Shown: positions 49,142 through 49,246, counted from the stretch's first letter. The stretch: 62,163 bases of DNA from Deltaproteobacteria bacterium (GCA_019312665.1 JAFDCZ010000005.1:1-62163), one strand, 5' to 3'. Notes: generated from the letters alone by a model not told the origin. Numbers and translations are program-made.

Positions 49142-49157
49142 TGGCACACGCCTTGCT
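49142..49157 (+). promoter_or_regulatory. Sigma-54 (-24/-12) promoter
   Basis: TGGCACacgccTTGCT matches the consensus TGGCAC-N5-TTGCW exactly. It lies 186 nt downstream of the bEBP gene and 180 nt upstream of the next ATG, and rpoN is encoded in the same window. Confidence 0.7.
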
Positions 49158-49205
49158 CTACTCATGGATCACGAACCAAGAGTTCCCCCCCAAGAGCCCC
49201 CCCCA

Positions 49206-49246
49206 GGACCCGGCCGCTCCCCCAGGCGGCCGGGTCCACCCCTTTT
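49206..49246 (+). terminator. Intrinsic-terminator-like hairpin in the leader downstream of the sigma-54 promoter
   Basis: GGACCCGGCCGC (49206-49217) pairs perfectly with GCGGCCGGGTCC (49226-49237). The loop is 8 nt, followed by ACCCCTTTT. Confidence 0.5.

What the first reader, a model, noticed from the sequence alone, without database searches (positions are those of the whole stretch)
49142..49246. Consensus sigma-54 promoter followed about 80 nt later by a strong terminator hairpin: candidate sigma-54-dependent sRNA or transcription attenuator
TGGCAC-N5-TTGCT at 49142-49157 matches the -24/-12 consensus exactly, which predicts a start near 49168. The transcript would begin with C-rich single-stranded-looking tracts (TTCCCCCCCAAGAGCCCCCCCC) that could pair with G-rich Shine-Dalgarno sequences. 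It would then form a 12-bp perfect GC-rich stem (49206-49237) followed by CCCCUUUU. That is the architecture of a short terminated RNA. The next start codon (49336) is a further 90 nt downstream. Sigma-54/bEBP-driven sRNAs located next to their activator gene are known (Qrr next to luxO, GlmY/GlmZ). Here the bEBP gene ends 186 nt upstream, and rpoN and rapZ are in the same window. Alternatively the hairpin is a conditional attenuator or riboswitch terminator controlling the DUF2889-HACL-CoA-transferase genes.
Basis: partly seen in the sequence, partly recalled or inferred. Interest (0 to 1): 0.72.

Follow-up and report, generated by a model that had tools for sequence, protein, structure and literature searches.

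The report
Sigma-54-driven C-rich small RNA candidate
Between a sigma-54 activator gene and a CoA-metabolism operon in an uncultured marine myxobacterium lies a conserved, unannotated sigma-54 promoter plus a ~80-nt C-rich hairpin RNA, most likely a new regulatory small RNA resembling Myxococcus Pxr, but no transcript data exist yet.

Summary
An exact sigma-54 -24/-12 promoter lies at 49142-49157. A 12-bp GC-rich hairpin lies at 49206-49237, followed by ACCCCUUUU.

The block was found in all eight complete and two contig-truncated syntenic loci I recovered, all uncultured marine Myxococcota, where the neighbouring DUF2889 protein is 49-86% identical. The predicted 76-83-nt RNA is more conserved (82% nucleotide identity) than the adjacent coding sequence (67%). 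The spacer behind it is not conserved (38% identity, 12-73 nt). The hairpin pairs in every sequence, with compensatory and G-U changes, so it is a plus-strand RNA structure. Two unpaired C6-C8 tracts and a C-rich loop are also conserved.

The downstream DUF2889 gene has no Shine-Dalgarno sequence. It has an invariant TATACT 9-10 nt before its ATG, a layout that recurs at other SD-less first genes here and suggests its own leaderless promoter. I therefore favour a separate sigma-54/bEBP-dependent small RNA (about 0.5) over a cis-acting operon leader or attenuator (about 0.3).

The hairpin is not a canonical intrinsic terminator. No Rfam family matches. Pxr of Myxococcus is the closest analogue, with the same layout and the shared 11-mer GUUCCCCCCCA, but covariance-model tests do not show homology. 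No RNA-seq data were available.

The parts
47606..48955 (+). Sigma-54 enhancer-binding protein gene (449 aa from ATG 47606; ATG 47633 is an alternative start). It has AAA+ Sigma54_activat, AAA lid and Fis-type HTH domains. The N-terminal ~140 aa have no Pfam match and no recognisable receiver domain.
   Evidence: Pfam. Orthologues of 68-88% identity sit in the same synteny.
48968..48986 (.). Palindrome TTGTCGG-N5-CCGACAA just after the bEBP stop codon. It is part of an array of alternating GTTGTCGG/CCGACAAC half-sites that is present in all orthologous loci. It is probably the enhancer (UAS) for the bEBP and could also serve as the terminator hairpin of the bEBP gene.
   Evidence: Unique in the window. 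Half-site arrays were read. The function is inferred.
49062..49076 (.). Conserved motif GACGAATCGCGGCAG about 80 nt upstream of the -24 element. GACGAANCGCGGC is also seen upstream of the sigma-54 promoters of paralogous bEBP loci (L222, L224). Its role is unknown.
   Evidence: Sequences.
49142..49157 (+). Sigma-54 promoter TGGCAC-N5-TTGCT (GG at -24, GC at -12). The predicted start is A49168.
   Evidence: Exact consensus. Conserved in 9 loci (8 complete plus L106) as TGGCA(C/T)-N5-TTGCTC(TA). rpoN is in the window.
49168..49246 (+). Predicted 79-nt RNA (76-83 nt in orthologues). This is the conserved block.
   Evidence: Mean pairwise identity is 0.82, against 0.67 for the CDS and 0.38 for the spacer. 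Covariance model R1 finds exactly one copy per locus.
49173..49185 (+). Small 5' hairpin GAAC-CAAGA-GUUC (4 bp; 5 bp in L008 and L192). Support is weak.
   Evidence: Paired in 7-8 of 8 sequences with little variation. RNAalifold does not predict it.
49185..49204 (+). Two unpaired C tracts (C7 at 49185-49191 and C8 at 49197-49204) separated by AAGAG. GUUCCCCCCCA is identical to the core of the loop of Pxr stem-loop 1 (SL1).
   Evidence: Conserved as C6-C8 tracts in all loci. Predicted single-stranded. Pxr sequences.
49206..49237 (+). 12-bp GC-rich hairpin with a conserved C-rich loop UCCCCCAG (49218-49225).
   Evidence: 100% paired in 9 sequences. There is one A-U to G-C double change, one pair that occurs as C-G, U-G and U-A, and one that occurs as C-G and U-G. 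The G-U pairs place the structure on the + strand RNA.
49238..49246 (+). Tail ACCCCUUUU (conserved as RCC(C/U)CUU...). It is a short, offset U-run and not a canonical terminator tail.
49247..49319 (+). Unconserved spacer of variable length (12-73 nt in orthologues).
   Evidence: identity 0.38; alignment.
49321..49326 (+). TATACT -10-like box inside the invariant CGTATACTC, 9 nt before the ATG. No SD is present. It is the inferred sigma-70-type promoter of a (near-)leaderless DUF2889 mRNA.
   Evidence: Invariant in 9 loci. TAnnnT-N7-9-ATG recurs at other SD-less first genes. Internal operon genes have GGAG-type SDs.
49336..50436 (+). DUF2889 gene (366 aa), the first gene of the DUF2889 / TPP enzyme (HACL- or oxalyl-CoA-decarboxylase-like) / family III CoA-transferase / AlkZ-like cluster.
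   Evidence: Synteny.
15103..16563 (-). rpoN (sigma-54), in an lptA-lptB-rpoN-ptsN-rapZ cluster.
   Evidence: Pfam.

Best explanation
The region is a separate small non-coding RNA gene of about 76-83 nt (49168 to about 49246), transcribed from a sigma-54 promoter. The promoter is activated by the bEBP encoded immediately upstream, which probably binds the GTTGTCGG/CCGACAAC palindrome array next to its own stop codon.

The RNA has a short 5' hairpin, about 30 nt of unpaired C-rich sequence (two C6-C8 tracts), and a very stable 12-bp 3' hairpin whose loop is again C-rich.

Its 3' end is probably formed at or just after this hairpin. This could happen by inefficient intrinsic termination at CCCCUUU(U), or by Rho acting on the C-rich, G-poor, untranslated RNA, followed by exonucleolytic trimming back to the hairpin.

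The C-rich single strands and loop most likely pair with G-rich mRNA segments such as SD-like GGAG/GGGG, as in other C-rich sRNAs.

The DUF2889 operon downstream has its own -10 box and a (near-)leaderless start.

What is shown: the promoter motif, its conservation, the RNA structure with covariation, where conservation stops, the absence of an SD, and the -10-like box. What is inferred: the transcription start, the 3' end, the activator-promoter link, trans action and the targets.
For: - Promoter: exact sigma-54 consensus, 3 matches in the window against 0.06 expected. It is conserved in every syntenic locus that reaches that far upstream. rpoN is present and a bEBP gene lies adjacent.
- Conservation profile: RNA block 0.82, promoter 0.76, CDS 0.67, spacer 0.38. 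The spacer ranges from 12 to 73 nt, so the constrained unit ends at the hairpin tail.
- Hairpin: 100% paired, with compensatory and wobble changes. The loop and the unpaired tracts stay C-rich.
- DUF2889 start: no SD, while the internal genes have GGAG or AGGAG. TATACT-N9-ATG fits a recurrent TAnnnT-N7-9-ATG class at SD-less first genes: window 54854, 40433(-), 24819(-) and 3827(-), and the 2-hydroxyacid dehydrogenase genes in L003 and L007.
- Control loci: two paralogous bEBP loci (L222, L224) have an ordinary layout, with the sigma-54 promoter about 50-75 nt before an ATG, preceded in L222 by a clear GGGGAGGA SD. L223 has a longer leader of about 245 nt that ends in an SD. The long SD-less arrangement here is therefore unusual for this bEBP family.
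- Precedent in the same phylum: Pxr lies directly downstream of the bEBP gene pxrR/nla19, behind a sigma-54 promoter (PMC5568312, PMC5684412; loci). It carries the same GUUCCCCCCCA in its SL1 loop, which those papers show to be essential for function.
Against: - No transcript evidence of any kind: no RNA runs were found.
- The hairpin is not followed by a proper U-tract, so read-through into the operon is quite possible.
- The element is always next to the same operon, as a cis-leader would be. The whole neighbourhood is syntenic in this clade, so this does not separate the models.
- The leaderless promoter is inferred from motifs only, and no conserved -35 box was seen.
- No consistent target was found among neighbouring genes.
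- Covariation rests on few independent events in 9 related sequences.
Confidence: 0.5

Rival explanations
1. The block is a cis-acting 5' leader. The sigma-54 promoter is the inducible promoter of the DUF2889 / TPP-enzyme / CoA-transferase operon, and the conserved ~80-nt element is part of its 106-168-nt leader. It could act as a transcription attenuator (a weak intrinsic stop, or a Rho loading site on the C-rich, G-poor RNA) or as a stabilising or processing element. A short RNA might still accumulate as a by-product.
For: - bEBP genes usually sit beside the operon they activate, and the bEBP-promoter-operon order is kept in all loci.
- The tail after the stem is a poor terminator, so read-through is likely.
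- The first ~40 nt are C-rich and G-poor, like a rut site (read directly from the sequence).
- Paralogous bEBP loci use their sigma-54 promoter for the adjacent gene.
Against: - DUF2889 has no SD and has an invariant -10-like box at leaderless spacing.
- The spacer between the element and the gene is unconserved and shrinks to 12-14 nt in L003 and L004.
- No conserved alternative (antiterminator) pairing is predicted. RNAalifold finds only the hairpin.
- No riboswitch or leader family matches.
- A conserved C-rich loop and conserved C tracts are not needed for a simple attenuator.
Confidence: 0.3
2. The RNA is a diverged member, a true homologue, of the Pxr sRNA family of Myxococcota. This is a special case of the sRNA model.
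For: - Same phylum and same layout: NtrC-family bEBP gene, then an intergenic region of about 190-260 nt with a sigma-54 promoter, then the sRNA (PMC5568312).
- Identical 11-mer GUUCCCCCCCA, which lies in the Pxr SL1 loop. It occurs 0 times in about 2 Mb (strand-bases) of other GC-rich loci.
- Both RNAs end in a GC-rich hairpin with a GGCCCGG/CCGGGCC core and a C/U tail.
- Model R1 puts weak hits (E 0.02-6) on Pxr genes in several loci.
Against: - Rfam Pxr (RF01812) gives no hit on the window at E<=10, although it scores 129 bits on M. xanthus.
- My own Pxr model R2 scores the element at E 0.7-0.9, no better than random coding sequence.
- Pxr has three stem-loops and is 108 nt long. This RNA has one solid hairpin and is about 80 nt.
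- The seed lies in a loop in Pxr but follows a 4-bp stem here.
- The two bEBPs share only the generic AAA+/HTH region (47% identity). PxrR has a receiver domain, while the N-terminus here has no Pfam match.
- The downstream genes differ.
Confidence: 0.12
3. The conservation reflects a DNA-level element, such as operators downstream of the promoter, G-tracts on the template strand, or a cruciform, and not a functional RNA.
For: The template strand carries four G-runs (G4-G8). The region is next to a promoter. These points come from reading the sequence only.
Against: - U-G wobble pairs in the stem would be C-A mismatches on the other strand and are meaningless in duplex DNA.
- Tract and loop lengths vary by 1-3 nt between loci, which fits poorly with fixed protein-DNA spacing.
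Confidence: 0.05

Closest known systems
Pxr sRNA of Myxococcus and other Cystobacterineae (Rfam RF01812)
   Same: - Myxococcota.
- The gene lies directly downstream of, and in the same orientation as, an NtrC-family sigma-54 activator gene (pxrR/nla19), with a sigma-54 promoter in the intergenic region (PMC5568312, PMC5684412).
- Contains GUUCCCCCCCA.
- Ends in a GC-rich hairpin with a C/U-rich tail.
   Different: - No significant covariance-model similarity in either direction.
- About 80 nt with one strong hairpin, against 108 nt with three stem-loops.
- The Pxr tail is a proper U-run (CUUCUUUU).
- The activator lacks a recognisable receiver domain.
- The flanking genes and the host clade (uncultured marine lineages) are different.
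Qrr sRNAs / LuxO of Vibrio, and other sigma-54/bEBP-dependent sRNAs (CrcZ/CbrB; GlmY and GlmZ/GlrR)
   Same: The concept is the same: a bEBP plus sigma-54 drives a short regulatory RNA, and in Vibrio the qrr1 gene lies next to luxO. This comparison rests on established knowledge and was not tested here beyond the Rfam search.
   Different: - No Rfam match to any of these families.
- Those RNAs use Hfq or protein sequestration and have canonical terminators.
- Their sequence motifs are unrelated.
C-rich, SD-targeting sRNAs (RsaE/RoxS, sX13, 6C RNA)
   Same: Several C-rich unpaired tracts or loops that could pair with G-rich, SD-like sequences. 6C and sX13 gave weak, chance-level Rfam hits on the hairpin.
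   Different: - Scores are far below the gathering thresholds: 18.5 against 47 bits for 6C, and 12.7 against 50 bits for sX13.
- Different taxa, promoters and architectures.
- Target pairing was not demonstrated here.

Membership tests
Sigma-54-dependent promoter | GG and GC doublets exactly one helical turn apart (TGGCAC-N5-TTGCW) | tested here: met
   Exact match at 49142-49157; 3 matches in the window against 0.06 expected.
Sigma-54-dependent promoter | Conserved in orthologous loci; rpoN and a bEBP present; an upstream enhancer-like site | tested here: met
   Conserved in 9 loci. rpoN confirmed. bEBP gene adjacent. Palindrome array about 165 nt upstream; binding to it is inferred.
Sigma-54-dependent promoter | Transcription start about 12 nt after the GC that depends on rpoN and the bEBP | not testable with these tools
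   No RNA runs hold the sequence.
Canonical intrinsic (Rho-independent) terminator | GC-rich stem-loop | tested here: met
   12 bp, about -30 kcal/mol, conserved.
Canonical intrinsic (Rho-independent) terminator | U-tract (at least 5 of 8) starting 0-2 nt after the stem | tested here: not met
   The scan does not call it. The tail is ACCCC followed by 2-5 U. Canonical terminators are not above chance anywhere in the window, so this organism may not rely on them.
Trans-acting bacterial sRNA (general) | Own promoter; a conserved structured body with conserved unpaired seed-like tracts; the conserved unit is bounded | tested here: met
Trans-acting bacterial sRNA (general) | A discrete short transcript and identifiable targets | not testable with these tools
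   No RNA data. A duplex scan of neighbouring gene starts was uninformative. Whole genomes were not available for target prediction.
Pxr sRNA (RF01812) | Significant match to the family covariance model | tested here: not met
   No Rfam hit at E<=10, whereas M. xanthus scores 129 bits. My own Pxr model gives E 0.7-0.9 on the element.
Pxr sRNA (RF01812) | Located downstream of an NtrC-like bEBP gene behind a sigma-54 promoter; C-rich functional loop motif | tested here: met
   Layout, compared with PMC5568312. Shared GUUCCCCCCCA. This is a resemblance and does not prove homology.
Pxr sRNA (RF01812) | Three stem-loops (SL1-SL3) with the seed in the SL1 loop | tested here: not met
   Only one consensus hairpin plus a weak 4-bp stem.
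Riboswitch or leader attenuator | Match to a known family, or conserved mutually exclusive terminator and antiterminator pairings, or sequestration of the SD | tested here: not met
   No Rfam match. RNAalifold predicts only the hairpin. The gene has no SD. Rho-dependent attenuation cannot be tested here.
Leaderless mRNA promoter (for DUF2889) | TAnnnT -10 box a few nt before the start codon, no SD, and the same pattern at other first genes | tested here: met
   TATACT-N9-ATG is invariant. The pattern recurs at about 5 other starts in the window and in orthologous loci. The transcription start itself was not observed.

The most novel reading that the evidence does not exclude
Myxococcota may share an ancient class of sigma-54/bEBP-controlled, Hfq-independent C-rich sRNAs built around a GUUCCCCCC(C)A seed. 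Pxr, so far considered a recent invention of the fruiting Cystobacterineae, would be one branch. This RNA, from uncultured marine lineages, would be another, here coupled to a bEBP that senses a metabolic signal next to a CoA/C1-C2 catabolic operon.
Probability: 0.15. Interest if true: 0.7.

Novelty: new member of a known kind. Interest (0 to 1): 0.55.

Why it matters
If transcripts confirm it, this would be a new, structurally supported sRNA family in a poorly known, uncultured marine branch of Myxococcota. It would be only the second sigma-54-dependent sRNA layout described in the phylum.

The seed it shares with Pxr would give a concrete handle on the still-unknown targets or partner of Pxr, and on how old that regulatory design is.

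It also shows that an exact sigma-54 promoter next to a bEBP gene does not have to be the promoter of the neighbouring operon. Here the operon appears to have its own leaderless start. This matters for regulon prediction in such genomes.

Tried and rejected
- Rfam at gathering and at permissive thresholds gave only a tRNA elsewhere in the window, plus chance-level hits to Scr3202, 6C, sX13 and flg-Rhizobiales.
- Sequencing-run search found only DNA metagenomes (marine sediment and seawater) and no RNA runs.
- First DNA pattern scan of genome contigs (GTTCCCCCCNNNGAGCCCCCC) returned 21 hits, all chance.
- Second pattern scan returned 77 genome hits, of which only 3 were true: L043, L086 and L106. 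L043 and L086 duplicate L006 and L003. It also returned 85 metagenome hits with none true. The element is therefore rare and confined to one clade, and it matched the pattern only once in the 5.83-Mb chromosome OZ245002.1.
- Covariance model R1 found no second copy in the window or in the other loci.
- RNAduplex target scan against neighbouring gene starts was dominated by the GC-rich stem arms and gave no consistent target. The appealing CUCCCCCA:UGGGGGAG match at the bEBP start codon in the window and L002 is not kept in L003, L005 or L008, so I dropped it.
- Pxr homology was tested in both directions with covariance models and was not significant.
- A small ORF or coding explanation was rejected. 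Indels in the C tracts are not multiples of 3. The ATG at 49164 is absent in orthologues. The long ORF from 49141 is only an in-frame upstream extension of DUF2889, and homologues start at the position of 49336.
- A search with the bEBP N-terminal domain alone returned nothing. The full-length search showed a sharp drop from orthologues (68-88%) to a broad family at 61% identity or less. Three of those loci have other downstream genes and lack the C-rich RNA.
- No conserved -35 box could be found for the proposed leaderless promoter (manual reading).

Full report
**1. Observation**

- TGGCACACGCCTTGCT lies at 49142-49157 on the + strand.
- The exact pattern TGGCAC-N5-TTGCW occurs three times in the 62-kb window, against 0.06 expected from shuffles.
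  - The match at 10782 (-) lies inside a long ORF and encodes a hydrophobic VALVLL stretch. It is probably chance.
  - The match at 18861 (+) is an orphan (see section 9).
- With the C of the -12 GC at 49156, the predicted start is A49168.
- The RNA would read AUCAC-GAAC-CAAGA-GUUC-C6-AAGAG-C8-A. It then forms the 12-bp hairpin GGACCCGGCCGC / UCCCCCAG / GCGGCCGGGUCC (49206-49237), followed by ACCCCUUUU (to 49246).
- Folding 49165-49250 gives -37.1 kcal/mol, z = -3.8, with 0 of 200 shuffles as stable.
- The bEBP ORF ends at 48955 and has Sigma54_activat, AAA lid and HTH_8 domains.
- The ATG at 49336 opens a 366-aa DUF2889 protein whose homologues are 345-375 aa long, so this start is right. The ORF from 49141 is only an in-frame upstream extension.
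- Downstream lie a TPP enzyme (HACL- or oxalyl-CoA-decarboxylase-like), a family III CoA-transferase, an AlkZ-like protein and a metallo-beta-lactamase-fold protein.
- rpoN (15103-16563, -) and rapZ (13202-14281, -) are in the window as part of the usual lptA-lptB-rpoN-ptsN-rapZ cluster.

**2. Conservation**

- DUF2889 homologues of 49-86% identity were traced to their contigs.
- Every locus with the bEBP / DUF2889 / TPP enzyme / CoA-transferase synteny carries the whole arrangement: L002, L003, L004, L005 (identical in sequence to L006), L007, L008 and L192.
- L001 and L106 carry it up to their contig ends.
- DUF2889 homologues in other contexts (L193, L194) have no bEBP gene beside them and no element.
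- The records are named Myxococcota, Deltaproteobacteria or plain 'bacterium' MAGs. DNA runs that hold the sequence are marine sediment and seawater metagenomes.
- The alignment shows three conserved islands:
  - the promoter, CTGCC-N-ATGGCAC-N5-TTGCTCTAGTA;
  - the RNA block;
  - CGTATACTC(C)-N6/7-ATG.
- Mean pairwise nucleotide identities are given below.

| Segment | Mean pairwise identity |
|---|---|
| RNA block | 0.82 |
| Promoter | 0.76 |
| DUF2889 coding sequence | 0.67 |
| Region between the bEBP stop and the promoter | 0.58 |
| Spacer after the hairpin tail | 0.38 |
| GTATAC..ATG | 0.88 |

- The RNA block is 76-83 nt long. The spacer is 12-73 nt long. The distance from the predicted start to the ATG is 106-168 nt.

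**3. Structure**

- For the 12-bp hairpin, all 108 cells (12 pairs in 9 sequences) form standard pairs.
  - One pair switches from A-U to G-C in four sequences.
  - One pair occurs as C-G, U-G and U-A.
  - One pair occurs as C-G and U-G.
- RNAalifold independently predicts exactly this hairpin and nothing else.
- The wobble pairs are only meaningful on the + strand RNA.
- The number of independent changes is small, so the covariation is supportive and not overwhelming.
- The 4-bp 5' stem (GAAC/GUUC) is kept but hardly varies.
- The unpaired C tracts (C6-C8) and the C-rich loop (UCCCCCAG; CCUCC in L002; C8 in L004) are conserved. That is not expected for a mere terminator loop.
- Length changes of 1-3 nt in the tracts exclude a coding function.
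- Covariance model R1 finds one copy per locus and no other copy in the window.
- Pattern scans of 185,579 genomes found the element in three species representatives, once per record, including the complete 5.83-Mb chromosome OZ245002.1. They found none in the JGI metagenome set.

**4. Is the hairpin a terminator?**

- The hairpin is not a canonical intrinsic terminator. The simple scan does not call it, because the stem is followed by ACCCC and then only 2-5 U.
- Canonical terminators are not above chance anywhere in this window. The organism may therefore form 3' ends differently.
- The first ~40 nt of the RNA are C-rich, G-poor and untranslated, which is what Rho prefers. This last point is inference.

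**5. The downstream gene seems to have its own promoter**

- Internal genes of the cluster have clear SDs: GGGAG before the TPP enzyme and AGGAG before the CoA-transferase, both in the window and in the orthologous loci.
- DUF2889 has none. It has an invariant TATACT 9-10 nt before the ATG.
- The same layout, TAnnnT-N7-9-ATG without an SD, recurs at other first genes:
  - window 54854 (TACCCT; TACCCT, TATTCT and TACAGT at the corresponding positions in L002, L005 and L007);
  - 40433 (-) (TATCCT, dihydroorotate dehydrogenase);
  - 24819 (-) (TACCCT, AAA protein);
  - 3827 (-) (TATCCT);
  - the 2-hydroxyacid dehydrogenase genes of L003 and L007 (TAGAAT-N8/9-ATG).
- My rough estimate is that about 1.3 such coincidences would be expected at roughly 55 gene starts in this GC-rich window. 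About six are seen.
- This is the signature of (near-)leaderless mRNAs made from -10-only promoters. The start site itself is not observed, and I found no conserved -35 box.

**6. Controls from related activators**

- Orthologues of the bEBP (68-88% identity) are confined to the same clade. The next tier (61% or less) is a broad family.
- Three such loci (L222, L223, L224) have other downstream genes, which are not DUF2889 homologues.
  - In L222 and L224 the promoter (CGGCAC-N5-TTGCT) lies about 50-75 nt before the ATG, which in L222 is preceded by a clear GGGGAGGA SD.
  - L223 has a longer leader of about 245 nt that ends in an SD.
  - None has the C-rich RNA.
- The long, SD-less arrangement in the window is therefore a departure from the family norm.

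**7. Interpretation**

The conserved unit consists of the promoter, a 5' stem, C-rich single strands and a stable hairpin with a C-rich loop, and it ends abruptly before an unconserved spacer of variable length. Together with an independent leaderless start for the next gene, this fits a separate small RNA gene better than a leader.

- I put the separate sRNA at about 0.5.
- A cis-acting leader or attenuator stays at about 0.3. Termination at this hairpin is doubtful, read-through transcripts would still carry the SD-led downstream genes, and bEBPs normally control the adjacent operon.
- The two models are not exclusive. A prematurely ended leader RNA can itself act as an sRNA.
- A purely DNA-level role is unlikely, given the wobble pairs and the variable tract lengths.
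- The palindrome array next to the bEBP stop codon (48968-48986 in the window, unique there; alternating GTTGTCGG/CCGACAAC half-sites in all loci) is the likely enhancer. It could equally be the terminator hairpin of the bEBP gene.

**8. Comparison with known systems**

No Rfam family matches. The closest known system is Pxr of Myxococcus.

- Similarities:
  - The pxr gene lies directly downstream of the sigma-54 activator gene pxrR/nla19, appears to be transcribed from a sigma-54 promoter, and needs its SL1 loop for function (PMC5568312, PMC5684412).
  - I fetched 26 Pxr loci. Pxr reads ...GGCUGAAGG-CGGUUCCCCCCCA-CCCCUUCAGC..., so its SL1 loop contains the same 11-mer, GUUCCCCCCCA, that follows the 5' stem here.
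  - That 11-mer is absent from about 2 Mb (strand-bases) of unrelated GC-rich loci.
  - Both RNAs end in a hairpin with a GGCCCGG/CCGGGCC core.
- Differences:
  - Rfam's Pxr model scores 129 bits on M. xanthus but nothing on the window.
  - A Pxr model of my own scores the element at E 0.7-0.9, no better than random coding sequence.
  - R1 hits Pxr genes only weakly, through the terminal hairpin (E 0.02-6).
  - The architectures differ: three stem-loops and 108 nt in Pxr, against one solid hairpin and about 80 nt here.
  - The two activators share only the generic AAA+/HTH part (47% identity). PxrR has a receiver domain, and this bEBP's N-terminus has no Pfam match.
- Conclusion: the RNA works like Pxr in layout, but membership of the family is not shown. 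Deep homology remains possible, at about 0.1-0.15.
- Qrr/LuxO and CrcZ/CbrB are analogues in concept only.
- C-rich, SD-targeting sRNAs (RsaE/RoxS, sX13, 6C) are analogues for the proposed pairing mode only.

**9. Verdict**

The sRNA reading is favoured, the 'strong terminator' is over-called, and nothing is known about transcripts.
- This is a new member of a known kind: an unannotated, structurally supported candidate sRNA family confined to a small clade of uncultured marine Myxococcota.
- Interest is moderate (0.55). It would rise if the shared seed links it to Pxr biology.

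Noticed in passing
window 54727-54835 (and L002 7853-7961): A perfect 53-nt inverted repeat with a 3-nt centre (a 109-nt palindrome). It runs from the last codons of the AlkZ-like gene to just upstream of the SD-less MBL-fold gene (ATG 54854). 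L002 has the same palindrome at 98% complementarity, and its differences from the window are mirrored in both arms, so the two arms co-evolve. It is absent in L005. Function unknown; it could be a long hairpin, a bidirectional terminator or an operator array.
   Followed up: partly
window 18861-18876 (+): A second exact sigma-54 consensus, TGGCACTCATATTGCA, in an intergenic region with no + strand gene downstream. It points at the 3' end of a minus-strand ORF (18935-19591). A small hairpin, GAGCCAG-C-CUGGCUC, lies about 65 nt after the predicted start. It could drive another orphan sigma-54 transcript (sRNA or antisense). Conservation was not checked.
   Followed up: no
window 10782-10797 (-): A third exact sigma-54 consensus lies inside ORF 9263-10828 (-), where it encodes a hydrophobic VALVLL segment near the N-terminus. 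It is probably a chance intragenic match.
   Followed up: partly
window 54854, 40433(-), 24819(-), 3827(-), 58789(-); L003 2744(-), L007 3159(-): A recurrent gene-start layout: (G)C-TAnnCT-CCGC...-ATG, that is TAnnnT 6-9 nt before the ATG with no Shine-Dalgarno. This suggests that (near-)leaderless mRNAs are common in this lineage.
   Followed up: partly
window 49062-49076; L224 ~5507-5523; L222 ~5455-5475: The motif GACGAANCGCGGC lies about 60-85 nt upstream of the sigma-54 promoter, both in the orthologous loci and in paralogous bEBP loci with different target genes. It may be a generic architectural or co-factor site for this bEBP family.
   Followed up: no
L005/L006 3305-4650: In the Tara/ARS66 MAG the bEBP gene is called as two overlapping pieces (372 aa plus 134 aa). 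This is either a frameshift or an assembly error. The promoter and the RNA block are intact there.
   Followed up: no
L008 6219-6665, L192 5109-5594, L193 2660-3978: DUF2889 genes keep company with formaldehyde-related genes: GFA between DUF2889 and the TPP enzyme in two loci, and Fae plus HalD next to a non-syntenic homologue. Together with the HACL-like TPP enzyme and the formyl-CoA-transferase-like gene, this hints at a C1/C2-CoA pathway.
   Followed up: no
L223 5734-6006: A paralogous bEBP locus has a sigma-54 promoter followed by a leader of about 245 nt. In that leader a C-rich run (CCUCCUCCCGCCCCC) lies just upstream of the complementary GGGGGCGGGAGGAG that contains the SD of a P450 gene. 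This could be a cis SD-sequestering hairpin.
   Followed up: no
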